From: Escherichia coli
GTDB lineage: Bacteria > Pseudomonadota > Gammaproteobacteria > Enterobacterales > Enterobacteriaceae
Direction: 5' to 3' (one strand)
DNA: 64,000 nucleotides
Assembly (NCBI RefSeq): GCF_011045215.1
Contig: NZ_CP049201.1
Shown: positions 30,411-50,340 of the stretch, piece by piece
Numbering within the stretch: position 1 is the stretch's first letter
How the letters are laid out: each line of letters begins with the position of its first letter
Position numbers and translations under genes: made by a program
The notes under the pieces: generated by a model
Told to the model about the DNA's origin: nothing
What the model saw: the letters and a program-made list of their open reading frames with translations, nothing else
Database searches by the model: none

Positions 30411-31835
30411 CTACGCAATACGTATGAACAAACCAATCATGACACTGGCTGACCCGGCAGACCCGAGTTCATCGCCTGACAGTGCACGATATGACCCCGG
30501 CATACCACCACCAGAACCCCGCACATATACGGAAACGCTGCCGTTATATCCAACCCCGCTACCGGTCGTGCCGTAACACATAAATTCAACCGCACTCAGG
30601 CGTGACCCCGGATAACTGTAACCGCGCTTTATCCGGCGGTCGGTGTCTGCGTCTCCCTTACCGTTATAAGCCGCCAGTACAAGACTGCCTGCACCGTACC
30701 AGCCGTCCGTGGTACCGGGAGCAATACCGGACAGAAGAGAGATAATGTCCTGTGAGGTAATCTTCAGATTTTCCCAGCCAGTCAGATAACCATTACCTGT
30801 TGTCCAGTAGCGGCTGTAATAAACATCGCCATTGATACCGTAGAAAATAATGGCCTTTGGTGTATATCGCGGTTCCGGTGGATTATTGCGTGCCTCAACC
30901 CACCGGATGCTGACCACCCCGTTAAACAACACACCTCCGGATATGATTTTACTGCCACCCTCAACAAAATATTCACCCGGCGTCGCATTCCTTACCCATG
31001 CCAGAAAATCATCCTCTGTGTTAAAACGGATGCGTTCTGCGGGCAGAAAAATATGCCCAAAACCAAATGCGCCAGGTGTCGCCAGACGGCCTTCAGTCCG
31101 GTCGCGAATGTCGCTCTGTGGCGTCATTGTGGCTGCGCTTTTCAGTCCAAGATTATCACGGGATTCCTGCTGAGCCTCTTCACCTTCATCAGCCAGCTCT
31201 GATAAACGATTCGCCGTTTTCAGTGTCGCAGATAACGCGGTGTCAATATCCTCCCTGACATGCTCTGCATCAGATGCAGCCTGTTTAGCAGCTTCAGCGT
31301 CCTTTTTTACCTCCTCGGCGGCATTCTCAACCTGTGAGACCAGATTTTCGGCCTGTTGTTTACCCTCCGCAACCGCGTCGGCGTTCTGCTGAACACCTTC
31401 CGCCAGTTTTTTTACCTCTTCTTTTTCCCGAGCGGCAGCGTCTGCATGTTGCCCTGCCTGTCGTTCGCTTTCTGTTGCAGTTTCCGCGCTCTGCTGCGCC
31501 TGCGCCACCAGTTCTTCGAACCGCTTAACAACATCCGGCTTCAGGTCGCCTTCATCGAGGGCAGTCAGAAAGTCGTTCAGCGTGCCAGGCTTTGAGTCGT
31601 CGTAAACCGAAATATCACCGACACAGTATTCCCTTTCAATACACGACCGAAGATAAACGTCATATTTTCCGGTCTGAGCTTCAAAAGCATATTCTCCTGC
31701 CGGACCTGTCACCACTGTCGCCACCGTTCTCATGACCACTGCGGATGTATTCTGTCTGGCTTTCAGAATAATATGGTATCCGGACATGGGGAGTCCCGCG
31801 CCATCCGTCAGCACACCCGAAATTAATACAGACAT
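30411..31835 (-). CDS. Side tail fibre (Stf-like): prophage tail-fibre N-terminal domain, Ala/Glu-rich coiled region, distinct C-terminal domain
   Basis: N-terminus ISGVLTDGAGLPMSGYHIILKARQNTS...SVYDDSKPGTLNDFL resembles recalled StfR/StfE N-domain. Confidence 0.7.
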   Translation of the reverse strand: MSVLISGVLTDGAGLPMSGYHIILKARQNTSAVVMRTVATVVTGPAGEYAFEAQTGKYDVYLRSCIEREYCVGDISVYDDSKPGTLNDFLTALDEGDLKPDVVKRFEELVAQAQQSAETATESERQAGQHADAAAREKEEVKKLAEGVQQNADAVAEGKQQAENLVSQVENAAEEVKKDAEAAKQAASDAEHVREDIDTALSATLKTANRLSELADEGEEAQQESRDNLGLKSAATMTPQSDIRDRTEGRLATPGAFGFGHIFLPAERIRFNTEDDFLAWVRNATPGEYFVEGGSKIISGGVLFNGVVSIRWVEARNNPPEPRYTPKAIIFYGINGDVYYSRYWTTGNGYLTGWENLKITSQDIISLLSGIAPGTTDGWYGAGSLVLAAYNGKGDADTDRRIKRGYSYPGSRLSAVEFMCYGTTGSGVGYNGSVSVYVRGSGGGMPGSYRALSGDELGSAGSASVMIGLFIRIA

Positions 31836-33145: not shown

Positions 33146-33614
33146 AGTATTTCAGCTCCAGTGTGAACGTTTTGTTTTTCGGCGCACCGCCGGGAAGAAA
33201 GGACGTGGTGTTATCTGAATAGGCGGTTACAACAAAATACCCCATCACATCCCCCGTCCCGGAAACCAGCAGATGCGGCGCAGGATTTTTATCCACCATC
33301 TGAACCAGCGTATCAAGGGCATCCATCCCCACACCGTCACGAAATCCCGCATGAACCATCCCTTCAAGGCTTATCGTTCTGGCCCCCTTACCGGTATACT
33401 GCAGCAGATCATTTTTTCCGATTAACTGCTGCTCATCCCATCGCCATTCCATGGTGCGCTTCATGGCGTTATACGCCGCTGAATCAATACTGAACTCAAA
33501 CTCACCAAACGACAGCATGACCCGCGAGGCCACATCGGTTAATGAACCAATCCTGTCCCATGCCCTGCGCTCAATCATGTTTGCGCCAAAGCCAACAAAA
33601 TCCACCATCATCAC
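33120..33614 (-). CDS. P2 gpU-like tail protein
   Basis: 164-aa ORF beginning MMMV, between tape measure and X. Confidence 0.65.
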   Translation of the reverse strand: MMMVDFVGFGANMIERRAWDRIGSLTDVASRVMLSFGEFEFSIDSAAYNAMKRTMEWRWDEQQLIGKNDLLQYTGKGARTISLEGMVHAGFRDGVGMDALDTLVQMVDKNPAPHLLVSGTGDVMGYFVVTAYSDNTTSFLPGGAPKNKTFTLELKYYGEKLADH

Positions 33615-35266
33615 CCCCAGAATGCATAACTGTCGGTCATGCTGGCCCGCTGGCCAAAATCAATATCACCCAGATTTTTCGTCACCCTGTCTGCCAGCTG
33701 TCCGGCATCCTCGCCGGGCTTCTGGGTGAGGTTAAATTCAGCCCGTATCTGATACGTGGGTTTTACTTCCACCTGGCTGATACTGCCCGGAACGTAGTGA
33801 AGCGCAGAAAGAGGATCCGTTTTTTCCTGCCCCTGTTTTGTAGCGGGTGGGGTGTCATACTTCGCGAGGACATCAAGCGCTTTCTTTTCCCATCCGTCAA
33901 AGTCCGGATCGTCTTCTGGCCCCAGAAAAGGCTCGAGGGACGCCTCAAATTTTTTATCGTCATCACTCAGGAAACCGCGTGTGTCTGTATACGCCTTCAC
34001 AACCTGCTTCGTCAGATCGGGATTTTTTTTAAGCTGATCATCAAACCATTTATCCTGCCCGTTCCTCTTCGCCACTGCCCTTGCCAGCTCTGGCGAGCCT
34101 GTTTTTGCCAGATATTCCAGCACCTCACGCCGGTCACTCCGTGGATCTTCAGCCAGCCCCCACTCGATGGCCTTTTCAGTGAGCCCGGCAATGACTTTTC
34201 CAAAATTCCACGCCCAGGCCGTCACCTTGATCAACATCGGCAGCGCGTCCTCTCTGATAAATGTATTGATTTTTTCCAGCCCGCCGTTTTTAAACCAGTC
34301 CGCCAGGTCGTCCGTGACCTGCTGAATATTCGGTGCCAGCTCTTTCCCCAGCTGTCCACAGATTTCATCAATGGACGAACCCAGAACACCGGTGAGGTTT
34401 GAGACGGCGATATGTCCCCGGACGGCACCATCCGCCCCTTCCCTGGTCACCAGGTTATAGCGCTTCTGCTCCTCAATAAGCTCCCGGTAAGTTTTTCCTG
34501 ACAGACGCATCCAGGTCAGGATCTTATTACCCTCACCACCAAACAATGCATCCGCCATCCCGGCAGCCTTTTGTTCATCCTTCACCTGCAGCAATCGGTC
34601 AAAAAGAAATTCAACCTGCTCCTGGTTGTTTTTTCCCGCCATCGCCCCGGCTTTCAGCCCCAGCGCCCCGAAGACCTGCTGTATGGCACCTTTATCCGAT
34701 GCGCCATTATCATCATCAAAAACCTTGTTGCGGTACTCCTCAAACAGATCCCCGAAGTTTTCCCCGTTCAGCCCCATCTGCTTACCCAGCGAATCCCACG
34801 CTGCATACGTCTCATAATCCACACCGTAACTCCGGGCTATCCCTGCCCGCTCTGCAGTTTCACTGTTCCGGCTAAATGCTGCACCGGCAGCGCCTGCCAG
34901 TGTCAGTCCTGCCCCGACCGAAAGCCCTAACCCCGCTTTCAGAGCGGTCTTTCCACGCCCTTTCCAGCGTTCCAGACGTTCCGCACGTGCCAGCTTACGG
35001 TTAAATTTATCCTGCTCTCCGGTGGCATCATGAATTTTTTTGCCCAGCTTTTCATACTGCTTTCGCAGTTCAGTAATATCCTGCCCTGCCAGTACGCCAG
35101 CCTGAATTTTTCGTTTCAGTACATCCTGCTGGCGAGTCAGGCGAGCCACTTCCTGCGTTGCCCCTGATAATCCGTGCTTCAGTCCATCAACCGATTTTTT
35201 CCACGACGGATCTATCGTGCCGCCGATCCTGATATTCGCTTTCAGGTTATCGCCCACCGTTGCCAT
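33611..35266 (-). CDS. Tail tape measure protein (551 aa)
   Basis: Long Ala/Gly/Lys-rich ORF following the E/E' chaperone pair; start MATVGDNLKANIRIGG. Confidence 0.7.
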   Translation of the reverse strand: MATVGDNLKANIRIGGTIDPSWKKSVDGLKHGLSGATQEVARLTRQQDVLKRKIQAGVLAGQDITELRKQYEKLGKKIHDATGEQDKFNRKLARAERLERWKGRGKTALKAGLGLSVGAGLTLAGAAGAAFSRNSETAERAGIARSYGVDYETYAAWDSLGKQMGLNGENFGDLFEEYRNKVFDDDNGASDKGAIQQVFGALGLKAGAMAGKNNQEQVEFLFDRLLQVKDEQKAAGMADALFGGEGNKILTWMRLSGKTYRELIEEQKRYNLVTREGADGAVRGHIAVSNLTGVLGSSIDEICGQLGKELAPNIQQVTDDLADWFKNGGLEKINTFIREDALPMLIKVTAWAWNFGKVIAGLTEKAIEWGLAEDPRSDRREVLEYLAKTGSPELARAVAKRNGQDKWFDDQLKKNPDLTKQVVKAYTDTRGFLSDDDKKFEASLEPFLGPEDDPDFDGWEKKALDVLAKYDTPPATKQGQEKTDPLSALHYVPGSISQVEVKPTYQIRAEFNLTQKPGEDAGQLADRVTKNLGDIDFGQRASMTDSYAFWG

Positions 35267-35686
35267 AACGTCGCCGCCTCTCTTCCGATTCCTCCAGCAT
35301 CATTGACACAAAATCTGCATACGGCAGCGCCATCACATCTCCGGGAGACCACCCGAACCAGGCACCGGCGCGCCGTATCGCTGTCAGGATGCTGTCTTCT
35401 TCCGCCTGACCGGCGGCAGCAAAAAAACATTAAACTGCCGCTCCAGGGCCAGGTAATCACACGCTTCCATATTCATCATGTCCGCCGCATCCATTCCGCA
35501 CAGGCCGGCTATCATATCCAGATCGGCTTCTGCTTCCGGCTTGGTACTCCGGCGATGTAACAGACGATCGCGGACGGTGGGTGCACGCATGGTGACATGC
35601 GAGATTGTCTGACCTGACGCAGTGACATACGGCACGGATAACACAATCTCCACGCTGCTGCAGGGAATACTGTTTATCTCTGGCAT
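35247..35686 (-). CDS. Tail assembly chaperone E+E' fusion via putative -1 programmed frameshift
   Basis: Slippery site G-TTTTTTT-G at 35421-35427 (minus strand); the -1 frame stays open for 58 codons and ends at 35247, overlapping tape-measure start. Confidence 0.55.
35384..35686 (-). CDS. Tail assembly chaperone (P2 gpE-like)
   Basis: 100-aa ORF between tube and tape measure; contains slippery T7G run near its 3' end. Confidence 0.7.
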   Translation of the reverse strand: MPEINSIPCSSVEIVLSVPYVTASGQTISHVTMRAPTVRDRLLHRRSTKPEAEADLDMIAGLCGMDAADMMNMEACDYLALERQFNVFLLPPVRRKKTAS

Positions 35687-35746
35687 ATTGATTTCCTCTT
35701 AAAAAGAAAAGGCGGCCTGAACCGCCTGAATGACCACTTCTCCGGA

Positions 35747-36265
35747 TCACACCCGGATAATTTTTTTCAGATCCGACAGCACATTCACACCGTTAATGCG
35801 CCGTACAAACTGCTCCGGAATAATGCAGATGGTCTCCAGTCCATCGACAGCCTGGCGGTAATAACTCAGTGACATTTCCACCGACACCGCTGCTTCTGCC
35901 TGCGAGGTGGACGGACGCGCATCCGGCGTGATACTGGTGATCATCCCCTGAAGGGTTTCCACCAGACCGCTTGTTGCACCGCCCACCTGATACGCCTGAC
36001 GGACAACAATTTCTGGCGAATAAATCCCTGCCTGCAATCCCAGCAGAGTCAGTATGGCCACGTCGTATCCGTAAATTTTAAACGAGCAGGTCAGCGCCTC
36101 CATACCGTCATCCACTGACACCGGCGCATCCATCGCACCGGTTTTGATGTCCACCTTCGTGATATTGATGGCCGGAGGCGTGTACTCATGTGCCCCCTGA
36201 AGGCGAATACCACCCGGCAGAAAGAGCGCCCATGCCCGTAGCAGTTTTTTTTCGCACGACATCAT
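35747..36265 (-). CDS. Tail tube protein (P2 FII-like)
   Basis: 172-aa ORF directly after sheath, ATGA overlap. Confidence 0.75.
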   Translation of the reverse strand: MMSCEKKLLRAWALFLPGGIRLQGAHEYTPPAINITKVDIKTGAMDAPVSVDDGMEALTCSFKIYGYDVAILTLLGLQAGIYSPEIVVRQAYQVGGATSGLVETLQGMITSITPDARPSTSQAEAAVSVEMSLSYYRQAVDGLETICIIPEQFVRRINGVNVLSDLKKIIRV

Positions 36266-37737
36266 ACTGTCAGTTCCTCCTGTGCCAGTTTATTGTTGAT
36301 CATTGTACGCAGCGTCAGGCGTTCCAGTGGTGACTTCGGCCCGAAGTCATAGTCGATATACAACTGCCCGGCAGCCAGGGTTTCTGCTGTATTCAGTTCG
36401 TCGTTCAGCCATGCGCTACCACCGTGGATCGCGCCCAGATTTTTAAGCTGGCGCATGTAGGCATTAATACTGCCGAGAATATCGTCCGCAACATCCCGAT
36501 CAATCGGACGGTCAACATAAGGCAACATGGATTCCTGAACACTGTCTTCAATCACATCAGCCGTACGGCGCACGGACTCAAAGCGCAACTGGCTATGAGA
36601 TGTGCACAGGCGGTTACCCCAGTGTTTAAAACCGTCATGACGAATAATGGTGGAGATGTTTTCCATGTTCAGCAGATTTGCCGTGCAGTTCTGCTCCCCG
36701 AGAATAAATGTATCCACCTGCTCAAGACCGGTGATATTCATCACGTCCTGATTTGATTTGGACCACCACCATCCTTTTTCATAATCAATACGGGCACGCA
36801 GTCCGGCAGCGCGTGCCGAATACGGGCGAAACACTGTTTGTCCGCTGTCATCCGTCACCGACACGCGCGGACGAAGCAGTTCAACACGCCCACCAAATAA
36901 CGTCCGGCGCTGAACCACATCCTGCGGCGTTACCATTGAGGGGGAGTCAATATAGGCAACAGCCCGCAGTTTCGCGGCATACGTTTCCAGCGCCTTTGCC
37001 ACACCATCATCCTCGCTGTAGCCAGTGGCGACAAGAATACGCGGCTGGTAGCCTGTTACGCCTTTGCTCTTCGTCAGAGCTTCCATGGCCTTAATCACTG
37101 CGGCACGCTGTTCTGCCTCCTTCGCTTTCGGTTTGCTTTCCGCACGTACCACAATCACCAGCGCACCGGTCTGGTCAAAAATATCACGCAGGGCAGGATA
37201 CAGCGTTCCGGAAGCCCCCAGCTTTCCGGCCTGCGTGAGTGCCCCCGCCACCACCACCGGCGTATTAACCGGAAATGCCTCATCCTCACCGCCGGACAAC
37301 GTCAGGGTAAAGGGAGATACCACTCCTTCCCCGACAGAATCTGCATTCAGCATGCTGGTATCGGCCATCACCGGTGAATCCTCCAGCGCATTCACAACCT
37401 CCTTCACACGTGACGCAGTGGCATTCGTCTCACCATGTTCATCTGTGCCCAGTGTGATCGTCAGGGTGTTTCCCTCCAGAGCCGCGGTTGTCTCTGCGTT
37501 TTGCTGCGTGCTTCCGTTGGCCACAACTGAAATCTCATTGCCGGACCGCCCGGCTTTTTTCGCTGTAAAATCCAGCGCGGAACTCAACAACCATGATCCG
37601 GCAGTACCGGAAGCACACACACCGCCGGAGGCGTCCGGCGCTGTCCCCACGAGGCCAATCACTGCCGTGGAGACGGTCTGCACGGCCACCGTGCCTGTCG
37701 TCAGTTCAATGGTTTCCACACCATGTAGTCCGGACAT
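36262..37737 (-). CDS. Tail sheath protein (P2 FI-like) with enlarged central region
   Basis: ORF track 36262..37824; start taken at MSGLHGVETIELTTGTVAVQTVSTAVIGLVGTAPDA (ATG 37737, RBS GGGAGAAA); C-terminus LYIDYDF..PLERLTLR resembles recalled P2 sheath. Confidence 0.8.
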   Translation of the reverse strand: MSGLHGVETIELTTGTVAVQTVSTAVIGLVGTAPDASGGVCASGTAGSWLLSSALDFTAKKAGRSGNEISVVANGSTQQNAETTAALEGNTLTITLGTDEHGETNATASRVKEVVNALEDSPVMADTSMLNADSVGEGVVSPFTLTLSGGEDEAFPVNTPVVVAGALTQAGKLGASGTLYPALRDIFDQTGALVIVVRAESKPKAKEAEQRAAVIKAMEALTKSKGVTGYQPRILVATGYSEDDGVAKALETYAAKLRAVAYIDSPSMVTPQDVVQRRTLFGGRVELLRPRVSVTDDSGQTVFRPYSARAAGLRARIDYEKGWWWSKSNQDVMNITGLEQVDTFILGEQNCTANLLNMENISTIIRHDGFKHWGNRLCTSHSQLRFESVRRTADVIEDSVQESMLPYVDRPIDRDVADDILGSINAYMRQLKNLGAIHGGSAWLNDELNTAETLAAGQLYIDYDFGPKSPLERLTLRTMINNKLAQEELTV

Positions 37738-37792
37738 ACATTTCTCCCATAAAAAAACCGCCCCTGAGGCGGTCAGTTGATTTACTTCTTTT

Positions 37793-38338
37793 TCAGGTGT
37801 TTTGTGGAGGTACTGGCCACTCAATGGCGTTATATGAGGTTTTATCAGTGATGGTGCTGAAATCCATCGCCTGCAGCGATTTCGCGTAAATGCGGTACGC
37901 TTTCAGCTTTTCCCTGTCCTCGTCGCTGATTAATCCCAGCAACAGGTCTTTTTCCCATTCGCTGGTCATTATACTGACCTGTTTTAACAGGGCATCACGC
38001 TCGTCTTCCGCTTTAAGTTTGTAGTCGAAAACAAATTCATCATTGCGGTAAAACCAGTAGCCTGATGCTTCAATGCGACGATTAGCGGTAATATCCGGCA
38101 ACTCAATCACGCTTTTATTTTCCGGGCAGATTGAGGTGATGTCTTTTCCGACCCAGACCACTTCGCCAGTTTCAACATAAATAACTTTCAGGGTGTCTGG
38201 TAGAAATTTTTCCTGGGCTTCGTGCCATTCCTGTCCATCATCTGAGAACAGCCACAATAAAAATTTATGCTGTCGCGCCAGCTGGTATTGCTCAATTGTT
38301 TTAGGGTTTTGTACCGTAATATTTTTTAAGTGCATCAT
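37793..38338 (-). CDS. Tail fibre assembly chaperone (P2 gpG / Tfa family)
   Basis: 181-aa ORF directly after fibre gene; C-terminus ...NAIEWPVPPQNT typical of Tfa. Confidence 0.75.
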   Translation of the reverse strand: MMHLKNITVQNPKTIEQYQLARQHKFLLWLFSDDGQEWHEAQEKFLPDTLKVIYVETGEVVWVGKDITSICPENKSVIELPDITANRRIEASGYWFYRNDEFVFDYKLKAEDERDALLKQVSIMTSEWEKDLLLGLISDEDREKLKAYRIYAKSLQAMDFSTITDKTSYNAIEWPVPPQNT

Positions 38339-38340
38339 GA

Positions 38341-39714
38341 TTACAAACTCGCTACATTTCTCCAGACGCCATTAATCAGAACCTGCACCGGGCGTGCATT
38401 GGCCCAGTCCACACTTTCACCGCCATCAACACCACTCAGTAAATGACCTGATGGCGCATTTCCCCCGCGTCCAATACCAATGGCGCTTCCCAGACGTACA
38501 TCCTGCACGCCGCCTGTTTTGGTCTGATAGCGGGCATCAAAGTTTCCGTAGTTTGATGGAGTTATCTGCCCATTTACAGCGAATGTGACGCTACCGTCTG
38601 TATTTCTCTGACTGTAGAAATGCCAGCCGGAATCATCACCAAGCTCTGCAACTACAGGTCTGGATGGATTACCCCATAAATTAAACCCTACGTTCTTCGT
38701 GGAGCTGTTGGAGCTGGATAGCGTGAATTTTTTACTATCCCCGGCCTGAACGTTTTTAAAAGCAATAGCAACTCCATTCTGAAAGCGAAATACGCGCTGA
38801 TTATTAGCATAAACATCCAGAATGCCGTCGCCGTTTTGTTTTATACCTGTATCGTTATCACCGAGAGTAATAGAATTACCACCCAATGCGTTATTCGTAC
38901 CAAGCGCCAGCCCACCATCAATTTTTGCACCGTGGCTGACTGATATAGCGCCTGTTCTCAGATTTATAGCAAATGGCCTTAATGGGCCGATATCACCGTT
39001 TTCGCCCCGTCCTTCAGACGTCGGGATAAAATGAAGATATTCTTCCGAACGACGAAAAATCAGGCCAAAAGCATCGTCGAAAATTCGCAGCGCATTCACC
39101 GTGCCAATTTTCAGCTCCCCGGTCATGGTGTCACCACCGCGCTGAACGGCATTTTTCGCTTTATCCACCGTAGGTTTTAATCCGAGGTTATCAACCGCTT
39201 CATCTTTATCTTCCACATCGGCAAGATTCTCGCCGATGCGCAGATAGCGTTTATCTCCGGCCTCCTGCGTGATAATCGCCCTGTGAGGATCCACCTCCAG
39301 CGTCACACTCTGTGTATGTGTAAGCGCAAGAACCAGTGTCAGTATCACCTCCTTGATAACGGAATCCGTCTGTGCCGGTAAATACGTATCCGGATAACGA
39401 CCATACGCAATCAGCGTGCCACGGCGACTCACCATCCCCAGCTCGCGCAGGGTCTTTCCCGGGTATGACTGACAGTCAATGACAATATCCCCGCTGATAA
39501 AACCTTCGTCCACCACGCCGCCTGAAAAGGGCTCCCGACCAAACTCACCACACAACATGACCATCGCCGCCATCTCATCCGGCGTTGAGGGCAGTGTTTT
39601 CCCGCCCCCGTCACCAATCATCACCTGACTGATGGTCACCACCTCACCGGCATGATATGCAGCTTCAATTTCGGCTGCCCCGGCTGTTGTCAAAACTAGT
39701 CCATGCATACCCAC
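38341..39714 (-). CDS. Tail fibre protein (P2 gpH-like)
   Basis: 457-aa ORF; C-terminal half (NNALGGNSITLGDNDTGIKQNGDGILDVYANNQRVFRFQNGVAIAFKN...) closely resembles recalled P2 H. Confidence 0.8.
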   Translation of the reverse strand: MGMHGLVLTTAGAAEIEAAYHAGEVVTISQVMIGDGGGKTLPSTPDEMAAMVMLCGEFGREPFSGGVVDEGFISGDIVIDCQSYPGKTLRELGMVSRRGTLIAYGRYPDTYLPAQTDSVIKEVILTLVLALTHTQSVTLEVDPHRAIITQEAGDKRYLRIGENLADVEDKDEAVDNLGLKPTVDKAKNAVQRGGDTMTGELKIGTVNALRIFDDAFGLIFRRSEEYLHFIPTSEGRGENGDIGPLRPFAINLRTGAISVSHGAKIDGGLALGTNNALGGNSITLGDNDTGIKQNGDGILDVYANNQRVFRFQNGVAIAFKNVQAGDSKKFTLSSSNSSTKNVGFNLWGNPSRPVVAELGDDSGWHFYSQRNTDGSVTFAVNGQITPSNYGNFDARYQTKTGGVQDVRLGSAIGIGRGGNAPSGHLLSGVDGGESVDWANARPVQVLINGVWRNVASL

Positions 39715-42339: not shown

Positions 42340-42348
42340 CAAAAGAGA
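42340..42348. repeat. Left copy of 9-bp direct repeat CAAAAGAGA (putative att core)
   Basis: Identical 9-mer at 53493-53501; both copies sit in the same reading frame of the split gene. Confidence 0.5.
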
Positions 42349-42760
42349 AAGCAAACAAACAAGATAATAAGTTGAATTTAAAGGAATAAAAAAGGCATCA
42401 TTTTTGCTTTTGGTACAAATTCTAGTCCGTATAAACGCGGAAAAATCCGCTAAATTAAGATAAAAAAGATGCTTAGATAGTTACTATGTTTAGCTTCATG
42501 GCTACGGGGAGTAAGTTTGCTCTTTGCTTAATCTCGGTTATGGAAATCCCCATATCGGCATCATGCCCACCAGCGTGACGCATTTTTTTTAATTTCGCGG
42601 GTATAAAAATTTGACGAGGCGGGCGGTCCCATAAGCAATGGGGTGTAGGGATTCCGATCCCCCTGGGGGGGGTATTAAACACCCACCCTATTTAAATACC
42701 GTCTTTTTTGTCACTGTGTGTCACTGGTTGTCACTCTCCGTCACGGTATGCCACCATAAG

Positions 42761-43075
42761 TTAACGTCGTAACCGCTCCGGCTTCTTCCAGTGGTAAGTA
42801 ATTTTTTCTTTCTCCTGGTACATCTGCACGCGGCGACGGTATGACAACATCTCCAGAACTCTGGTGCGTATATTGCGCATATCCACGCCGTTAAGCTCAA
42901 TACCGTCACGGCGCATCACCTCAGCCACCACACGCGCGTAATTTTCGGCTATCACGCTGTCCGGCTGCGTGGCCTCCTGTTTGCCTGCTGGTGGTCTGAT
43001 TCCGGCAGCACGGCGAATCATTTTGAGCATTTCGGCTTCGGTCATTGTCATGGCCTCCGTGGTGATGGAAAACAA
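42761..43075 (-). CDS. Hypothetical protein downstream of element terS
   Basis: 104-aa ORF, no recognised motif; start uncertain (Met at 43075, 43051 or 43045). Confidence 0.4.
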   Translation of the reverse strand: MFSITTEAMTMTEAEMLKMIRRAAGIRPPAGKQEATQPDSVIAENYARVVAEVMRRDGIELNGVDMRNIRTRVLEMLSYRRRVQMYQEKEKITYHWKKPERLRR

Positions 43076-43310
43076 TGCCGTAATTGTGGCGGGTCCTTCC
43101 TGGAAAATGAAACACCGGGGGTGGCCATACGCGCAATTCTTAACTGTTTATGAAAATTTTTCGGGAAAAGTCAGATCCGTTCTTCTTCTCTGTAACTCAT
43201 TGTTTAATGGTAAAATCATCAAAAAAAGAAAGGATCTGGCAGTGGTCATTCTGGGCCCAAAATGACGTTATCAGATCCTTTCTCAGTTTTGTTCAATAAT
43301 TGCGCGGTTG

Positions 43311-43895
43311 TCACTCAGCTCTCTGTTGCCGTAACTTCTCCGGCACGTTTCCGGTTGTTTCCATCAGATAATCTTCCAGAATGCGGGGCAGGTTATCGGC
43401 AGTTTTAGCGCACGCATTACAGGCGCGTGCTGTTTCCCTCCTCAGGCCATCGATCATTGCCGGAGTCATCGCGGGAAACTGCCTTTGCATCGTAAGGGGC
43501 AAGCTATTCATGATGGTTGAAATCTGTTGCGCCAGTTTAGACAGTGCATACATACAAAAGCCGGTATCTATAACCTCTCCTGTCTCCCTGGCGTTCTTCA
43601 GTTCCTGCCCGTCAGCCTGTGCTTTAGTGAGACGGTATCGTTCGTACTCTGTTGTGCCTGGCTGTAAATCTGATTCACCAACGGCACGTAAATCATCAAG
43701 CTCACTGCGGAGTTTTTCTTTTTCGATCTCCTTCTCCCTCTGTACATACCATTCGATCACCTGTGAAGAGTCGAAAGTCACCTCCATACCTTTTCCGCCA
43801 CCAGATACATGGGGGAGCCCTTGCATCTGCCAACGTTCAATTGTGCGCGGATCAACACCGAAAATCTCTGCCAGTCTCTTTTTGTTAACATTCAT
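43311..43895 (-). CDS. Terminase small subunit, lambda Nu1-like (element copy)
   Basis: N-terminus MNVNKKRLAEIFGVDPRTIERWQMQGLPHVSGGGKGMEV resembles recalled lambda Nu1 winged HTH; C-terminal half similar to the prophage TerS at 62051..62560. Confidence 0.8.
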   Translation of the reverse strand: MNVNKKRLAEIFGVDPRTIERWQMQGLPHVSGGGKGMEVTFDSSQVIEWYVQREKEIEKEKLRSELDDLRAVGESDLQPGTTEYERYRLTKAQADGQELKNARETGEVIDTGFCMYALSKLAQQISTIMNSLPLTMQRQFPAMTPAMIDGLRRETARACNACAKTADNLPRILEDYLMETTGNVPEKLRQQRAE

Positions 43896-44039
43896 TTATC
43901 AAATCCTCATCAAAAACCACCTCCGACATGAAACGCCTGAAAAACGGGATTTTCCGGCGTTATGGTGTCGTATGTTTATTATAGTTAATTTAAATAAAAA
44001 CATAATGTTACATGCAAGAAGTACCGACATGCTTTTTCC

Positions 44040-44115
44040 CTGAAAAATTTTCATAAATAGTGAAAATCTGCGCGTCTGCCGCCCCGCGGTGTTTCTGATT
44101 CTGGAAAGGACCCGT
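44040..44115. other. Lambda-like cos site of the element
   Basis: GAAAAATTTTCATAAATAG ... GCGCGTCTGCCGCCCCGCGG ... GGAAAGGACCCG; reverse complement resembles the lambda cos junction (CGCTATTTATGAAAATTTTCC, GGGCGGCGACCT, GGGTCCTTTCC); about 185 bp upstream of terS. Confidence 0.6.
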
Positions 44116-44194
44116 GAAAATTGGGGCGATCACCACCGTTCCGGATACAAAAAAAATCGCGAGACCTTGCCAGCCTCGCGAACGTTCATTTCAG

Positions 44195-44620
44195 TTACTT
44201 AACAGACAGCAACAGCTTTTCATCTTCGGTCAGTCCGGCGTTGCCATCACCGGCTGCTGGCCCAACACATTTCGGGCTGTGCTTTTCCATGTACGCTTCA
44301 AACAGAAAAGCCGTTTTCTTTTCCTGCATCATTGCCTGGGCATCCACGGCAGCCAGTAACGTTTGTGCATAGGTTACTGTCATTACTTCAGAACCACACT
44401 CAATCAGCTTACTGGTGAACTCAGGGTATTTTGATGCCAGCGGTAACGCCTTGATACCCTCTATGCGCTGTTTATCACTCTCAGCCTTTGCAGTAAGCAC
44501 CGTTCGGGCTTCTGTCAGTGATGCGCCATTATTTGCGAGATTTTCCGCAAGCGTCGGGTATTTCTGCGCCTCAGGCAGTGCCATGATCAATGCTCTGGTT
44601 GAATTTGCTTTCTCAGTCAT
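44195..44620 (-). CDS. Hypothetical head-module protein (possible scaffold)
   Basis: 141-aa ORF between decoration-like gene and cos; no recognised motif. Confidence 0.45.
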   Translation of the reverse strand: MTEKANSTRALIMALPEAQKYPTLAENLANNGASLTEARTVLTAKAESDKQRIEGIKALPLASKYPEFTSKLIECGSEVMTVTYAQTLLAAVDAQAMMQEKKTAFLFEAYMEKHSPKCVGPAAGDGNAGLTEDEKLLLSVK

Positions 44621-44634
44621 AAATCACCACAAAA

Positions 44635-44964
44635 TTATTGCCCTAAAGGCTGCACGGAAATACCGGAACCAACAAAAGACGACACTTTTTTCTCGAACGT
44701 GTCCGCTGTATCAGGCCAGTTAATTTCATCGATATTAAAAACCCCGCACTTATAAACCTGTGCGCGGTTTTTTGTGGCCGTGTTAATGTCCGATATGGTC
44801 AGATACACCGCCTTACCGGGTGTACCGTCCCACTCAACCATCAGGCCCGCGCCGTTCTGCATCAGCGGAGTTCTCGCTTTAATTTCTCCGGCACTGGCAA
44901 AACAGGCCAGCGTGCTGACCAGTTCCTGCGTGCCGGAAAGGAATTGCGTGTAAGGTGTTGGCAT
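44635..44964 (-). CDS. Head decoration protein homologue (lambda gpD-like, element copy)
   Basis: RTPLM..VEWDGTPGKAV...YKCGVF..INWPD...FVGSGISV parallels the gpD pattern TPLM..VAWDG...YKSGTF...WP..AF.GTAIS. Confidence 0.65.
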   Translation of the reverse strand: MPTPYTQFLSGTQELVSTLACFASAGEIKARTPLMQNGAGLMVEWDGTPGKAVYLTISDINTATKNRAQVYKCGVFNIDEINWPDTADTFEKKVSSFVGSGISVQPLGQ

Positions 44965-44974
44965 ACGATCCCCT

Positions 44975-46030
44975 TTATTTCACTTCGACGGTAACAAAGC
45001 GACCAATATCCACGGGTACTGGCTGCGGGGCGCTGTGCGTCTGCACGTATTCAATCGCCGGATCGCCCGGTACGATATAATTTTTCGGGTAGTACATCCC
45101 CTCAGAAAATCCCTCGCGTGCCGCGTCCTGATCCATGATGGCACCATAAGCAACAAGGCCTTTATTTTCGGTATTGCCGAAAACCATCATGTTTTGTTTC
45201 AGGAAATATTGCTGCTGCCCGTTTTCGTCGTCATAACGACCGGAATAAACCACGATCGCCACATCACCGAGATACCCCTTGAAGCTGACAACGCCGCCCA
45301 AATCTTTTAGCGCAAGTTCAAGTGACGAGTTTGAACCGCGACGCGTGTCCATTAGTTCGCGGAATCGACGGAACGAGCGCAAAATACGCCAGGCTTCGCC
45401 ACCCATGACGATAATATTTACCGTACCTTCGGAAAAATCAGCGTAAGCCTCAATGTCGCTTATCGGATCAAACGTTTCGGCATCCTGTTTTGACCATTCT
45501 TTCCCGCCAGCCTGCGTAATATGATTGGTTTCGGGTAATCCCCAGTCAATTTCATAACGCTCAATGCCTTCGCCCTCAATAACGTTACGGCCTGTTGTGA
45601 TGGCATTGACCGCCAGCCATTCAACACGCGCTTTGATGGCAGCAAGCTGTTTTTTCTGGCTGTCGTGAACCATTTTTACGCGGCGTAGTGCCGGGGAAGA
45701 CTGACCATTGCCGATCTGTTCTCCAGGCATGCGCATGATTGTTTTGGTGGGATCAATAACGTGTTTGGGCTTCATATAACCCGGCGTGAACGTGTTCGTT
45801 GTGAAACCTTTGTCACGCATAACCTGGCTGCCTGACATTGGAGAACAAAACGGACTCATGACCACGTTTTCAATATCCAGCGTATCAAGTGCAATATCTC
45901 TGGTGCTGAAAGTAGCGACGTTCGGAAAGAACAACGTAGTAAAGAGTGGATTAAATTTAAATTCCGGCACATCTTCGCGCCCGATATTTTTCAGTAGCGT
46001 TGGTGTGCTTACCAGTTGCGGCGCTGTCAT
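44975..46030 (-). CDS. Major capsid protein homologue (lambda gpE-like, element copy)
   Basis: 351-aa ORF; TPGYMKPKH, NHITQAGGKEWSKQDAETFDP, KELMDTRRGSNSSLELALKDLGGVVSFKGY align with the prophage gpE at 55439..56467. Confidence 0.8.
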   Translation of the reverse strand: MTAPQLVSTPTLLKNIGREDVPEFKFNPLFTTLFFPNVATFSTRDIALDTLDIENVVMSPFCSPMSGSQVMRDKGFTTNTFTPGYMKPKHVIDPTKTIMRMPGEQIGNGQSSPALRRVKMVHDSQKKQLAAIKARVEWLAVNAITTGRNVIEGEGIERYEIDWGLPETNHITQAGGKEWSKQDAETFDPISDIEAYADFSEGTVNIIVMGGEAWRILRSFRRFRELMDTRRGSNSSLELALKDLGGVVSFKGYLGDVAIVVYSGRYDDENGQQQYFLKQNMMVFGNTENKGLVAYGAIMDQDAAREGFSEGMYYPKNYIVPGDPAIEYVQTHSAPQPVPVDIGRFVTVEVK

Positions 46031-46266
46031 TACTCACCCCCATGAGGCTGATTCATACCAAGCGCAGCGCGTAAATGGCTGCGTACCATCCAGCCGACTG
46101 ACGGCTTCACCAGGCACAACGGATCAAGGCCGATTTTTTTTCCTGCCTCTGCGTTCTCCTCAAAGCGCGCATTAAGTGCGGCGATAATATCGGGGCTGAT
46201 GTACACGGATACACCGCCCGGCTTCTGTGTTCCCATAAATGAGATTCCTCTTTGACTAAAAAACAA
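46030..46266 (-). CDS. Hypothetical protein upstream of capsid homologue
   Basis: 78-aa ORF, start uncertain; no recognised motif. Confidence 0.35.
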   Translation of the reverse strand: MFFSQRGISFMGTQKPGGVSVYISPDIIAALNARFEENAEAGKKIGLDPLCLVKPSVGWMVRSHLRAALGMNQPHGGE

Positions 46267-46457
46267 ACATAACGAAAAGTCATGTCATGATTTTAATTAT
46301 CGTTGCACTTTTTGCAATATAATTGACTATTGTTGCGAATAATGAAATCATTATGTCGTGGTTTTAATCCTTGTACCACAGAGTTGTTTAGCATTAATCA
46401 CGTTAGCGGCGTGAAATCCCCCGGAACCTCATCCCGGGGGATTTTTTTGCGCACAAA

Positions 46458-46482
46458 AAAGCCGGGAAAAATCCCGGCTTCT
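46458..46482 (-). terminator. Terminator after element ssb
   Basis: AGCCGGGA..TCCCGGCT hairpin followed by TTTTTTGTG on the minus strand, just after ssb stop. Confidence 0.5.
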
Positions 46483-46494
46483 GTCACTCGTTGC

Positions 46495-46917
46495 TTAAAA
46501 CGGTATTTCATCCCCGTACGGATCATCATTTCCCGCCTGTTGTTTTGCTCTGCTCAGTGCATCAGTAGCCTGCCCCTGTTGGCCTTTTTTGCCGCCCGGT
46601 CGCGCCGTTCTGGCACTGATTACACTGTCTGCGATAACCTGCCAGCTCTGCCGCGTTTCGCCGTTCTGGCCTGTCCACTGGCTTACCTGCATGTTACCCG
46701 CCACGCTCACCAGTTCGCCTTTGCGGTGTTTTGCCAGTGCGTCGGCCTGTCTGCCAAACGCCAGGACGGATAACCACATCGTCGCCGTTCCGTCATCTGC
46801 CTGGCTGCACGGCAGGGGAACCGCCATACTCGCCATCGCCATTTGTGTTCCCTTGCTGGTGGTCTTTAACTGCGGGTCAGCCACCAGCCGCCCGTAAGCT
46901 GCTATCTGTGCTGTCAT
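46495..46917 (-). CDS. Single-stranded DNA-binding protein (SSB-like) with acidic C-terminal tip
   Basis: 140-aa ORF; C-terminus ...NDDPYGDEIPF resembles the SSB tail ...DFDDDIPF. Confidence 0.7.
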   Translation of the reverse strand: MTAQIAAYGRLVADPQLKTTSKGTQMAMASMAVPLPCSQADDGTATMWLSVLAFGRQADALAKHRKGELVSVAGNMQVSQWTGQNGETRQSWQVIADSVISARTARPGGKKGQQGQATDALSRAKQQAGNDDPYGDEIPF

Positions 46918-47165
46918 GCTGTCTGCTCTCCGGTTTTAACGTTGATGGTTGTCACCTGTTCCGCTTCGGCAATCTCCCGCTCTGTCAGCGTGGCAAAGTT
47001 TGCCGCCGCTGTGGTCATGAATGCGCTTATCAGTTCGGGATGTGCTTTTGCGTATCCTTCTCCGGCATGGCGGTCTATTGTTCTGATTGCCACCTTTAAG
47101 GCGTGCTCTGTCATGTCTAACGCTTTATATTTTGGCGCTGTCTTATCTCTGGTTTTTTTGGTCAT
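46914..47165 (-). CDS. Hypothetical protein
   Basis: 83-aa ORF, ATGA overlap with ssb start. Confidence 0.45.
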   Translation of the reverse strand: MTKKTRDKTAPKYKALDMTEHALKVAIRTIDRHAGEGYAKAHPELISAFMTTAAANFATLTEREIAEAEQVTTINVKTGEQTA

Positions 47166-47370
47166 TTCTCACTATTCCCCACTTTTTCGCCTCACTTTTT
47201 AAGCTCCCAACATGATTTCCAACCTTGTTTTTTTGTGATTCTAATATGTTGTTTTTCAATGTGTTTTTTATTCCTCACTTTTGAGCCTATATACAGGTTG
47301 AAAAGTGAGGGGCGCGGTTGCTTTTTGTTCAGTTTCTGCTATCCCCTCACTTTTGTGCCTCACTTTTTAC
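47165..47370. repeat. Iteron array with AT-rich core (candidate replication origin of the element)
   Basis: CTCACTTTT at 47191, 47274, 47346, 47361 and inverted AAAAGTGAGG at 47301, flanking an AT-rich stretch (47225-47275), directly downstream of the helicase gene. Confidence 0.55.
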
Positions 47371-48782
47371 AGTGGGCGCACATCATCACCGTCAATAGTG
47401 ATAACGCCGTCTCTTTCCAGCTTGTACAGCCAGCGCCGAAAGTTTTTCATCTCATACCCCAGCTTTTTCATATCATCACGCAATAACGGGATAGTGCATT
47501 TATCGCCGCGCTGTGTGCGTGAACGGATACAGCCCCATAGCGCGGCGTGATTCTCCGTCTTGTTTCCGGCCTCCTCAATGCGCTCCAGTTCAACAGGTGG
47601 GCGCGGCTTATCCACTACCACCAGCGACGTGATTAACTCCTTGTCAGCGTCGATAAAAAGCTCCACCACGCGTAAATCGTATGCGGCCTCTTTCAGTTCC
47701 TCTGCGTCCTTCATTTTGGTGCAGGAGATAACCAGGGCTTCACTGTCTGCACCTTCCCGGCGAATACGGTATTCAGCGTCCAGAGATGCACGAAATGCAC
47801 TGGAACCACGCGCCCCCTTTGTTTCATCCTTGCCGGAATGGTGAACCACCAGTACCGTGGCCCCTGTGCGTCGTTTCAGTTCGTCACATCCACGGATAAA
47901 CGCCCCCATATCCCGCGCGTCATTTTCATCATTACCGCCAAAACACCGCGCCAGCGTATCCAGAATAATCATGCGTACCGGTTTACCCGTTTCCCTTTCA
48001 ACCTGGCGGGAAGCGATGACCATTTCATCAATATCAAACTGTGCTGCCGGAAAAATCGGGCGGTTTACCAGGTACAGATTTTTCACCCGTTCATCATTAA
48101 CGATTTCCCATGCTTTGATACGACGAGGGACACCAATGCCACCTTCACCGACGACATACATCACCGAACCATGCGCCACCCTGCGGCCTCCCCAGTGGCG
48201 ACCCGTGGCAACATGACACGCCCAGGAACACGCGAGGAATGATTTATAGGAACCGCTCGCGCCGTATGTGCTGCACAACGAATTAGCCGGAATCACGCCC
48301 TTAACGACATAATCAAGCTGTGTGTCGTACCCTGCAGATCCAATACTCATTGGTAGCGTGGTTTTTCGCTGGTCGTTTTTTTCTTCCTCCGGTATCTCTC
48401 CGGACCGTCTTTTCTGGCGCTCTCGTTCCAGATATTCGCGCCACCCCTCCCGCTTCTGGCTGTGCATTCCCTCAGGGTAATAATTCGCATCCCGTACACC
48501 TGCCGCTGCCAGCTTTTGCCCGATGGCATTAATATTTGACGGCTTGATGTGGCCTGCCTTGTACAGCCGGACACAATAGCGACCATCGTCGATAATTTTC
48601 AGGTCAGCCAGTTCGTCAAGATGGCTGTCTCCAAGCCATACAGGCGGAACATTGTCGCCAGCAAGTCGCCCGTCCTGCTCCTGCCATTGTTTCGCGTGCG
48701 CCCAGGCATCACTACCCGCAAAAATAATGACTTCGGTCATTTTGTCGTGCGGCTGTTTTTTTAAGTTCGGTGCCAGTTTCAT
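47367..48782 (-). CDS. Replication protein, RepA/DnaB-like P-loop helicase
   Basis: 471-aa ORF with Walker A GASGSYKS and RecA-like core; C-terminal winged-helix-like region. Confidence 0.7.
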   Translation of the reverse strand: MKLAPNLKKQPHDKMTEVIIFAGSDAWAHAKQWQEQDGRLAGDNVPPVWLGDSHLDELADLKIIDDGRYCVRLYKAGHIKPSNINAIGQKLAAAGVRDANYYPEGMHSQKREGWREYLERERQKRRSGEIPEEEKNDQRKTTLPMSIGSAGYDTQLDYVVKGVIPANSLCSTYGASGSYKSFLACSWACHVATGRHWGGRRVAHGSVMYVVGEGGIGVPRRIKAWEIVNDERVKNLYLVNRPIFPAAQFDIDEMVIASRQVERETGKPVRMIILDTLARCFGGNDENDARDMGAFIRGCDELKRRTGATVLVVHHSGKDETKGARGSSAFRASLDAEYRIRREGADSEALVISCTKMKDAEELKEAAYDLRVVELFIDADKELITSLVVVDKPRPPVELERIEEAGNKTENHAALWGCIRSRTQRGDKCTIPLLRDDMKKLGYEMKNFRRWLYKLERDGVITIDGDDVRPL

Positions 48783-49078
48783 TTTTTACCCCTGAATGCG
48801 TTAATCATGTTTTTCATTTTCTGAATGTTCGCCCGTGCCTTTGCGTTGCTGGTGGGCTGTTTGCATGGCGTGGCCTGTATCAGTGAAAAATCACGCCGGA
48901 ACTGATAAACAGGCATCACGCAGTCATAGCCGTACCCATCACGGCGGTAAGTAACGCACCGTCCCGCCACGCTTTTAATCGTTACCGTGCCGCCGTAGTT
49001 ATCCCGGAAAATATCGCCGGGGCGGATTTCAGGCCGAGCGGGGCCGCTGGCAGTAAAGCCAGAAATTTTCTGTTTCAT
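48779..49078 (-). CDS. Hypothetical protein
   Basis: 99-aa ORF, ATGA overlap with helicase start. Confidence 0.4.
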   Translation of the reverse strand: MKQKISGFTASGPARPEIRPGDIFRDNYGGTVTIKSVAGRCVTYRRDGYGYDCVMPVYQFRRDFSLIQATPCKQPTSNAKARANIQKMKNMINAFRGKK

Positions 49079-50283: not shown

Positions 50284-50340
50284 CTATCACTAATGTCGCA
50301 ACCAGAGGAGTTGCGACTCCGAAGATTACATAGGAAATTA

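What the first reader, a model, noticed from the sequence alone, without database searches (positions are those of the whole stretch)
35415..35430. Slippery T7G site predicts a -1 programmed frameshift producing E+E' tail chaperone
Near the 3' end of the gpE-like gene the coding strand reads G-TTT-TTT-TG. The -1 frame from this point is open for 58 codons (…AAAGQAEEDSILTAIRRAGAWFGWSPGDVMALPYADFVSMMLEESEERRRRYGNGGR) and ends overlapping the tape-measure start. This is the conserved arrangement of tail assembly chaperone pairs (lambda G/GT, P2 E/E'). The ORF track's 35242..35460 entry is the other (+1) frame and is probably not the real extension.
Basis: partly seen in the sequence, partly recalled or inferred. 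Interest (0 to 1): 0.45.

Follow-up and report, generated by a model that had tools for sequence, protein, structure and literature searches.

The report
Frameshifted tail chaperone gene pair
This is an ordinary, well-known phage device: a run of T's near the end of a small tail-assembly gene very probably makes a few ribosomes slip back one base and produce a longer second protein. It sits in an E. coli prophage where genome annotation has missed it.

Summary
On the minus strand the 100-codon gene 35686..35384 reads AAT GTT TTT TTG. That places the heptamer T_TTT_TTG (35426..35420) in the phase needed for -1 slippage, 11 codons before the stop. The -1 frame opens two codons upstream (stop TAA 35432..35430) and runs 57 codons after the slip. 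It ends at TAA 35249..35247, 20 nt inside the tape-measure gene (ATG 35266).

The gene is a Pfam PF10109 tail assembly chaperone, as is P2 gpE. P2's annotated -1 site is the same heptamer at the same profile position.

Comparative evidence supports the reading:
- The heptamer is invariant in 29 distinct close relatives.
- The codon before it changes amino acid (V/D/N/A) in more distant relatives but always ends in T.
- A homologous -1 extension is open in all 79 evaluable viral loci.
- Substitutions between the E stop and the tape-measure start fall on third positions of the -1 frame (26 of 42).
- The +1 ORF 35242..35460 is broken in 10 of 22 variants.
- In the window the -1 frame has no start codon before its conserved core.

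No fusion protein has been shown experimentally here. Verdict: a new, unannotated member of a known kind; low interest.

The parts
35384..35686 (-). E-like tail assembly chaperone gene (0 frame, 100 aa)
   Evidence: ORF and translation. Pfam PF10109 Phage_TAC_7, E=1.3e-11, 44.8 bits against a cutoff of 25, residues 14-89 = profile 2-78/79. phrog_166 'tail protein', E=1e-22. RefSeq calls the homologue 'phage tail assembly protein'.
35420..35426 (-). Slippery heptamer T_TTT_TTG (part of G-T7-G, 35428..35420), in X_XXY_YYZ phase
   Evidence: Sequence and phase. Invariant in 29 distinct close relatives. In-phase TTTTTT(G/A) at the same codon in 6 intermediate relatives and in 47 of 79 viral loci. 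Identical heptamer at the annotated P2 frameshift site.
35247..35420 (-). E' extension in the -1 frame (57 codons plus TAA). With 35686..35420 it forms the predicted 146-aa E+E' fusion
   Evidence: Translation. Always open in relatives. Third-position substitution bias in the -1 frame, 26 of 42 variable columns, p=4e-4. A family profile aligns across both E and E' of P2 E+E', probability 90.8%, E=1.2e-6. AlphaFold model pLDDT 83; best viral fold match is 'Tape measure chaperone', Burkholderia phage Mica, E=6e-6.
35430..35432 (-). TAA stop in the -1 frame immediately 5' of the T run. It limits the place where the frame can be entered to 35429..35384
   Evidence: Read from the sequence; -1 ORF limits computed (loci L025/L026, 99% identical to the query).
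33611..35266 (-). Tape measure protein gene (551 aa). Its start overlaps the E' end by 20 nt
   Evidence: ORF. phrog_3654 E=1e-203 and several 'tail length tape measure protein' PHROGs at E=3e-10 to 1e-3. RefSeq homologue named 'phage tail tape measure protein'.
35747..36265 (-). Tail tube gene upstream of E (sets the synteny)
   Evidence: Pfam PF04985 Phage_tube, E=4e-22.
35441..35444 (-). GGAG 14 nt 5' of the heptamer: a possible Shine-Dalgarno-like stimulator (speculative)
   Evidence: In every clade that carries the T6G/A heptamer, the Glu codon here is GAG, giving GGAG or GAGG at the same distance. This is confounded with coding for Leu-Glu. Inference only.
35710..35727 (-). Terminator-like hairpin plus T run between the tube gene and E (context, not part of the shift)
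   Evidence: Terminator scan. The same GC hairpin plus T run precedes the E ribosome-binding site in most relatives, including distant clades.

Best explanation
The locus is a P2-type tail assembly chaperone pair made from one start codon. Most ribosomes translate the 100-aa E-like protein and stop at 35384. A minority slip back one base on U_UUU_UUG, with tRNA-Phe in the P site (UUU to UUU) and tRNA-Leu in the A site (UUG to UUU). They continue in the -1 frame for 57 codons and make a 146-aa E+E' fusion (...NVFL-AAAGQ...GGR) that ends just inside the tape-measure gene. By analogy with lambda G/GT and P2 E/E+E', the shared N-terminal domain should coat the tape measure protein. The E' tail, present in a fixed low ratio, should recruit tube subunits so that the tail polymerises to the right length. 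Neither protein should remain in the virion. Shown here: the sequence anatomy, family membership of E, synteny, conservation of the heptamer, and protein-coding constraint on the -1 frame. Inferred: that the ribosome rather than RNA polymerase slips, the ratio of the two products, and the binding partners.
For: Anatomy and phase. E is PF10109, as is P2 gpE. In both, the Leu of the heptamer is the last matched residue of the domain (profile position 78 of 79). The P2 record annotates gpE+E' with a -1 frameshift at GGT TTT TTG; PMC3091744 states that P2 shifts at TTTTTTG. Conservation: the heptamer is invariant in 29 distinct close sequences and the -1 frame never has a stop. Six relatives at 54-82% identity keep an in-phase T_TTT_TT(G/A) while the preceding codon changes (GTT/GAT/AAT/GCT) and always ends in T. 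All 79 evaluable viral loci keep a homologous -1 extension of 35-49 codons beyond the E stop. Coding signal: between the E stop and the tape-measure ATG, 26 of 42 variable columns are third positions of the -1 frame. In the 53 nt before the first possible -1 start codon the figure is 14 of 18 (p=3e-4). Upstream E shows the bias in frame 0 (53 of 72), and so does the tape-measure gene, more weakly (34 of 78; 31 of 44). No independent start: in the window the first ATG/GTG/TTG of the -1 frame is codon 31 of the extension, after the conserved AIRRAGAWFGWSPGD core. The 0-frame tail is dispensable: one lineage truncates it by 4 codons without touching E'. Homology to P2 E+E' across both parts: hhalign probability 90.8%, E=1.2e-6. 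Fold: best viral match is a tape measure chaperone of fusion length, and lambda-type GT of phage N15 is also listed.
Against: There is no direct evidence of the fusion protein for this element. The E' part matches no Pfam or NCBIfam model, and pairwise BLASTP to P2 E+E' is not significant (E=0.11). No downstream stimulatory RNA structure was found: single-sequence z-scores are -0.95 and -0.06, and the alignment fold is -2.9 kcal/mol with a positive (unfavourable) covariation term of +0.65. P2 is reported to lack one too (PMC3091744). About 30 distant relatives keep E' but have GTT TTT ATG instead of a canonical heptamer, so the canonical tandem slip is not the only way this family reaches the frame. 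A run of seven T could also allow some transcriptional slippage.
Confidence: 0.88

Rival explanations
1. The longer product is made by transcriptional slippage. RNA polymerase adds one extra U while copying the T7 run, and ordinary translation of that minority mRNA gives E+E'.
For: The window has seven consecutive T. An inserted U would give the same -1 reading. Homopolymer slippage by bacterial RNA polymerase is an established route to such products (reviewed in PMC5009743; general knowledge).
Against: Relatives with the same arrangement have only six T (GAT/AAT/GCT TTT TTG), five T (GTT TTT ATG) or GGGTTTT at the same place. These runs are too short for efficient polymerase slippage (the run-length requirement is from my own knowledge, not tested here). 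What is conserved is the in-phase heptamer and a T at the preceding third position. The identical P2 site is annotated and described as a translational frameshift.
Confidence: 0.06
2. E' is a separate small protein translated from its own start codon in the -1 frame, as RefSeq implies with a 45-aa 'hypothetical protein' in some strains. No recoding occurs.
For: Some relatives have ATG at extension codon 13 (ILMAIRR), and PGAP calls a 45-aa ORF there. In the window a GGAG lies 5 nt before an ATG at extension codon 32.
Against: In the window and several relatives that codon is ACA (Thr), so no ATG/GTG/TTG precedes the conserved core. Yet the 53 nt upstream of the first start codon show a clear -1-frame coding pattern (14 of 18 changes at third positions). 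In the window the -1 frame opens only two codons before the heptamer.
Confidence: 0.02
3. The slip occurs in the same T run but not as the canonical P2-type tandem slip. It might be a P-site-only slip of tRNA-Phe on U_UUU, or a slip one codon earlier (GUU in the P site, UUU in the A site), giving NVFF-AAAGQ instead of NVFL-AAAGQ.
For: About 30 related loci have GTT TTT ATG and two phages have G_GGT_TTT, one codon 5' of the window's heptamer position. Both groups still keep E' in the -1 frame.
Against: The window and 47 of 79 viral loci do have the full in-phase heptamer, with Leu TTG/TTA conserved. That is unnecessary for a P-site-only slip.
Confidence: 0.1
4. The real extension is the +1-frame ORF 35242..35460, or the open -1 frame is a chance feature with no product.
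For: A 72-codon +1 ORF exists in the window. A -1 run of at least 57 codons occurs at about 6% of positions by chance.
Against: The +1 frame has stops within 57 codons in 10 of 22 distinct relatives and has no family hits. The -1 frame is open in all relatives and shows coding constraint.
Confidence: 0.01

Closest known systems
Bacteriophage P2 gpE / gpE+E' (FETUD tail operon; Christie et al. 2002, cited; GenBank AF063097)
   Same: Same Pfam family for the N-terminal part (PF10109). Same heptamer T_TTT_TTG in the same phase at the same profile position. -1 direction. The extension is 57 codons in both and ends a few bases inside the tape-measure gene. Same gene order: sheath, tube, E/E', T, U, (X), D. 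No downstream RNA structure (PMC3091744 for P2).
   Different: Only about 22% pairwise identity. The E' part does not reach PF06528, which P2 E' matches at 1e-21. The 0-frame tail after the site is 11 codons here against 6 in P2. The host element is not P2-like overall: it has a lambda-type head module, and the nearly identical strain C5 prophage has a Mu-type transposase region next to it.
Phage lambda gpG / gpGT
   Same: Same logic: a chaperone gene between the major tail gene and the tape-measure gene, a -1 slip near its 3' end, a low-abundance fusion, and neither product in the virion (PMC5009743). The N15 GT protein appears among the fold matches (probability 0.97, E=0.09).
   Different: A non-contractile tail and a different slippery sequence (G_GGA_AAG; my own knowledge). 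No detectable sequence similarity.
Phage Mu and BcepMu-type chaperone pairs (gp41 family)
   Same: The same Pfam family name covers 'E, or 41 or 14'. The BcepMu-like phages PhiKM and KP12 were found as distant relatives of E.
   Different: In those phages the conserved extension lies in the +1 frame. This agrees with the -2 frameshift reported for Mu (PMC5009743). The window uses -1.

Membership tests
Frameshifted tail assembly chaperone pair (lambda G/GT, P2 E/E+E'; Xu, Hendrix & Duda 2004) | Two overlapping reading frames located between the major tail/tube gene and the tape-measure gene | tested here: met
   Tube gene 35747..36265, E 35384..35686, E' to 35247, tape-measure gene from 35266.
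Frameshifted tail assembly chaperone pair (lambda G/GT, P2 E/E+E'; Xu, Hendrix & Duda 2004) | A slippery sequence in the correct phase inside the overlap of the two frames | tested here: met
   T_TTT_TTG at 35426..35420. It lies at the 5' edge of the 46-nt window in which both frames are open and is conserved.
Frameshifted tail assembly chaperone pair (lambda G/GT, P2 E/E+E'; Xu, Hendrix & Duda 2004) | The second frame has no start of its own and is conserved as protein in relatives | tested here: met
   No start codon before extension codon 31 in the window. Third-position bias in the -1 frame. Homologous extension in all 79 evaluable viral loci.
Frameshifted tail assembly chaperone pair (lambda G/GT, P2 E/E+E'; Xu, Hendrix & Duda 2004) | A fusion protein is made at a low fixed ratio, is required for tail assembly, and is absent from virions | not testable with these tools
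   Needs protein detection and genetics.
Pfam PF10109 Phage_TAC_7 (tail assembly chaperones E / 41 / 14) | Score above the curated gathering threshold (25 bits) | tested here: met
   44.8 bits for E and 50.2 bits for the fusion. P2 gpE+E' scores 47.8 bits in the same model.
Pfam PF06528 Phage_P2_GpE (the E' domain of P2) | Score above the gathering threshold (23 bits) on the extension | tested here: not met
   No hit even at E<=10, whereas P2 E' scores 76 bits. A family profile does align with P2 E' (FGWSPGDVMALP with FHWPPSELYPMS) as part of a 115-column match, probability 90.8%. This suggests a probable distant homologue, not a member by the curated test.
Peduoviridae (P2-like phages) as a whole | P2-type head, replication and control genes together with the P2-type tail | tested here: not met
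   The tail module is in P2 order. The head module is lambda-like: Nu1 and large terminase, portal, S49 peptidase, decoration protein, capsid E, FI. In the nearly identical strain C5 prophage a Mu-type transposase/MuB/GemA/Mor region is adjacent. There is no near-identical isolated phage in the phage collection.

The most novel reading that the evidence does not exclude
The canonical heptamer may not be the essential element in this family. About a third of related loci keep a homologous E' in the -1 frame, entered within one or two codons of the same place, with only GTT TTT ATG. In all heptamer-bearing clades a GAG codon gives GGAG/GAGG 14 nt upstream. The core mechanism could therefore be a P-site U_UUU slip, helped by an upstream Shine-Dalgarno-like pairing as in dnaX, with T_TTT_TTG merely a more efficient derived state. 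That would make this family a natural series for studying how slip sites are gained and lost while the product ratio is maintained.
Probability: 0.2. Interest if true: 0.35.

Novelty: new member of a known kind. Interest (0 to 1): 0.12.

Why it matters
Scientifically this adds little. Programmed frameshifting in tail chaperone genes has been a textbook feature of tailed phages since lambda G/GT and P2 E/E+E'.

Its practical value is for annotation. In the RefSeq records inspected, PGAP either leaves 35383..35267 unannotated or calls a 45-aa 'hypothetical protein'. No fusion-length protein was found in the 5.8-billion-sequence protein collection (best query coverage 64%). This prophage family occurs in 73 of 5,426 complete E. 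coli genomes, so an essential tail protein is missing from its annotations.

The E' domain of this lineage also lies outside the current Pfam model for P2 E'.

Tried and rejected
- **Near-identical phage search.** A megablast search of the phage collection found nothing. Only distant protein-level relatives exist there.
- **Family scans of E'.** Pfam at E<=10 and NCBIfam at E<=1 found no hit. PHROGs gave only a weak match to phrog_8286, of unknown function (E=0.037).
- **Downstream stimulatory RNA.** Single-sequence folds of 55 and 100 nt are no better than shuffles. The local GUCAGG/CCUGAC hairpin is broken by an A-to-C change in most relatives. The alignment fold of 10 diverse relatives gives -2.9 kcal/mol with an unfavourable covariation term. 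Rejected.
- **Solved structures.** The sequence search found only chance hits. Foldseek against PDB gave nothing significant; the HK97 tail assembly chaperone 2ob9 appears only at E=2.9.
- **Christie et al. 2002.** The paper could not be read because it is not held. P2 facts come from the GenBank record and from PMC3091744 and PMC5009743.
- **The +1 ORF 35242..35460.** Rejected as the extension.
- **Independent initiation of E'.** Rejected for the window.
- **A control statistic.** The number of -1 runs extending past ORF stops was contaminated by spurious stop-to-stop ORFs, so I do not rely on it.

Full report
**1. The observation**

All genes in this part of the window are on the minus strand. 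The coding strand reads ...CAG TTT AAT GTT TTT TTG CTG CCG CCG GTC AGG CGG AAG AAG ACA GCA TCC TGA. The run is G(35428)-T7(35427..35421)-G(35420), inside the stated 35415..35430.

The ORF 35686..35384 encodes 100 residues. In its frame the codons are GTT(Val87) TTT(Phe88) TTG(Leu89). The canonical -1 heptamer X_XXY_YYZ is therefore T_TTT_TTG at 35426..35420, 11 codons before the stop.

The -1 frame has a TAA at 35432..35430, directly 5' of the T run. It then stays open through F-AAAGQAEEDSILTAIRRAGAWFGWSPGDVMALPYADFVSMMLEESEERRRRYGNGGR to TAA at 35249..35247.

The next gene starts at ATG 35266..35264, so the extension overlaps it by 20 nt. The predicted fusion is 146 aa.

**2. Chance**

Neither element is rare by itself. 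The window holds 11 T7G copies on the two strands. About 6% of positions within long ORFs are followed by at least 57 open codons in the -1 frame. The case therefore rests on location, phase and conservation.

**3. What the genes are**

- E matches Pfam PF10109 (Phage_TAC_7, 'tail assembly chaperone proteins E, or 41 or 14') at 44.8 bits against a 25-bit cutoff. Residues 14-89 cover profile positions 2-78 of 79, so the Leu of the heptamer is the last residue of the domain match.
- Upstream lie a Phage_tube gene (35747..36265) and a sheath gene.
- Downstream lie a 551-aa protein, then gpU, tail protein X and a gpD-like protein.
- The 551-aa protein hits phrog_3654 (E=1e-203) and several tape-measure PHROGs. 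RefSeq names its homologue 'phage tail tape measure protein'.
- The order baseplate V-W-J-I, fibre, fibre assembly, sheath, tube, E/E', T, U, X, D is that of P2.

**4. Where it comes from**

The 551-bp region is 99.5% identical to a prophage of E. coli strain C5. Versions at 87-92% identity occur in 73 of 5,426 complete E. coli genomes. No isolated phage in the phage collection is close at the DNA level.

RefSeq annotates E as 'phage tail assembly protein'. It leaves the stretch up to the tape-measure gene empty, or in some strains calls a 45-aa 'hypothetical protein' in the -1 frame. No joined CDS is annotated. A search of 5.8 billion proteins with the fusion found only E-length proteins, with at most 64% coverage.

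**5.

*Close relatives.* I combined 10 E. coli loci and 30 viral contigs, giving 29 distinct sequences.
- ATGTTTTTTTG is invariant.
- The -1 extension never contains a stop (20 distinct peptides).
- The +1 frame has a stop within 57 codons in 10 of 22 distinct versions.
- One lineage ends the 0-frame tail four codons early without affecting E'.

*Substitution pattern.* The distribution of variable columns over codon positions identifies the translated frame.

| Region | Variable columns at the third codon position of the translated frame | Translated frame |
|---|---|---|
| Upstream E | 53 of 72 | 0 |
| Between the E stop and the tape-measure ATG | 26 of 42 (p=4e-4) | -1 |
| The 53 nt before the first possible -1 start codon | 14 of 18 (p=3e-4) | -1 |
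| Tape-measure gene | 34 of 78 (weak here; 31 of 44) | 0 |

The stretch between the E stop and the tape-measure ATG is therefore translated in the -1 frame. In the window it has no start codon of its own before the conserved AIRRAGAWFGWSPGD core. The ATG that PGAP uses in other strains is ACA here.

*Intermediate relatives.* These have 54-82% identity in E and come from Salmonella, Citrobacter, Trabulsiella and three sequencing-run (Logan) assemblies.
- All six have an in-phase T_TTT_TTG, or TTA in one case, at the same codon, plus a homologous -1 extension.
- The codon before the heptamer encodes Val, Asp, Asn or Ala in different lineages but always ends in T. Selection is therefore on the nucleotide heptamer, not on the protein.

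*Viral contigs.* I evaluated 79 loci.
- All keep a homologous -1 extension of 35-49 codons beyond the E stop.
- 47 have the in-phase T6(G/A).
- About 30, similar to Citrobacter phage Chris1 and Hafnia phage yong2, have GTT TTT ATG instead, with no canonical heptamer.

Vibrio phage Valp1 and Ralstonia phage phiRSP have G_GGT_TTT one codon 5' of that position.

**6. Comparison with P2**

The P2 record annotates gpE (91 aa) and gpE+E' (142 aa; '-1 frameshift; essential tail protein'), with the site at GGT TTT TTG. PMC3091744 states that P2 shifts at TTTTTTG and that P2 lacks a downstream structure.

P2 gpE+E' matches PF10109 over residues 7-85 (profile 2-78). Leu85 of the P2 heptamer therefore sits at the same profile position as Leu89 here. 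P2's extension after the slip is also 57 codons.

A profile of 12 predicted fusions from this family aligns with P2 E+E' over 115 columns spanning both parts. VFLAA pairs with GFLVA, and FGWSPGDVMALP pairs with FHWPPSELYPMS (probability 90.8%, E=1.2e-6). Pairwise identity is only 22% and is not significant on its own.

The E' part does not reach PF06528, the P2 E' model, at any threshold, while P2 E' scores 76 bits. I therefore file E as a member of PF10109. I treat E' as a probable distant homologue of P2 E', but not as a member by the curated test.

**7. Structure**

An AlphaFold model of the fusion is confident (mean pLDDT 83, pTM 0.75). It shows a short beta hairpin followed by helices.
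- Its best match among predicted viral structures is a 137-aa 'Tape measure chaperone' of Burkholderia phage Mica (E=6e-6). Other tail assembly chaperones and the N15 GT protein appear lower in the list.
- There is no significant match among solved structures.

**8. Mechanism**

The best-supported mechanism is ribosomal -1 tandem slippage on U_UUU_UUG, as in P2, giving ...NVFL-AAAGQ....

I found no downstream stimulatory RNA. An upstream GGAG (35444..35441) lies 14 nt before the heptamer. It is kept as GAG-containing GGAG/GAGG in all heptamer-bearing clades. It might act like the dnaX Shine-Dalgarno-like stimulator, but it is confounded with coding and remains a speculation.

The roles of E (binding the tape measure protein) and E' (recruiting tube protein) are inferred from the lambda G/GT work summarised in PMC5009743.

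**9. Rivals**

- *Transcriptional slippage* on T7 is possible in principle. It fits poorly with relatives that have T6, T5 or GGGTTTT at the same place.
- *Independent initiation of E'* is contradicted by the coding signal upstream of any start codon.
- *The +1 ORF* is not conserved.
- *A P-site-only or one-codon-earlier slip* remains open. It would change only residue 89.

**10. Verdict**

It is a new, unannotated member of a thoroughly known kind of recoding site. The fusion protein has not been shown experimentally. Interest is low.

Noticed in passing
window 42348-53490: An 11-kb segment is absent from the otherwise collinear strain C5 prophage and lies between the baseplate V gene and the head-completion genes. 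It encodes a tyrosine integrase with an Arm-DNA-bind_3 domain (52087-53418), a Bro-N protein, an AAA_25 primase/helicase-like protein (47367-48782), its own Phage_cap_E major capsid protein (44975-46030) and a Nu1-type small terminase (43311-43895). It looks like a capsid-encoding phage satellite (PICI-like) or small integrative element inserted inside the prophage.
   Followed up: partly
window 35710-35727 (minus strand); also L002-L104 just upstream of E: A GC-rich hairpin followed by a T run sits between the tube gene and the E ribosome-binding site. It recurs at the same place in most relatives, including distant clades. It is probably a partial intrinsic terminator that lowers expression of E/E'/tape measure relative to sheath and tube. 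A similar site lies just before the sheath gene (37774-37756).
   Followed up: partly
L011, L012, L057, L060-L065, L076-L101 (viral and phage loci): About 30 related loci keep a homologous E' in the -1 frame but have GTT TTT ATG ('NVFM') instead of T_TTT_TTG, with no canonical in-phase heptamer. In several, the -1 frame opens only one or two codons upstream. How these lineages shift is unexplained; a P-site U_UUU slip is one possibility.
   Followed up: partly
L013 (Escherichia phage PhiKM) and L014 (Klebsiella phage KP12): In these BcepMu-like distant relatives of E, the conserved extension (RFQPGEIDALDTDDLEMWLEQAEEQ...) lies in the +1 frame. This is consistent with the -2/+1 shift reported for Mu-type chaperones. 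Neither record annotates it.
   Followed up: no
L024 (E. coli C5, NZ_CP010122 3560000-3608000); window 53490-63209: The element combines a P2-order contractile tail module with a lambda-type head module (Nu1 and large terminase, portal, S49 peptidase, decoration protein, capsid E, FI). In C5 it lies next to a divergently oriented Mu-type early region (repressor, MuA-like transposase, MuB-like ATPase, GemA, Mor, holins). Whether this is one mosaic phage or two adjacent prophages was not resolved.
   Followed up: no
window 37815-39126 and 31199-31835: Parts of the tail-fibre and fibre-assembly region match the C5 prophage in inverted orientation, at 96% and 83% identity. C5 carries partial 'prophage tail fiber N-terminal domain' pseudogenes there. 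This suggests fibre-gene inversion or shuffling.
   Followed up: no
window 36262-37824 (minus strand): The mechanical ORF for the sheath gene starts at a TTG (520 aa), but RefSeq homologues are 491 aa (1,476 nt). The true start is probably an internal ATG about 29 codons downstream.
   Followed up: no
L010 and L036 (E. coli relatives), equivalent to window 35396-35398: One lineage has a stop four codons earlier in the 0-frame tail of E (…PPVRRK*) while the -1 frame reads on unchanged (AEVNS). The last residues of E are therefore not under constraint, but the overlapping E' residues are.
   Followed up: yes
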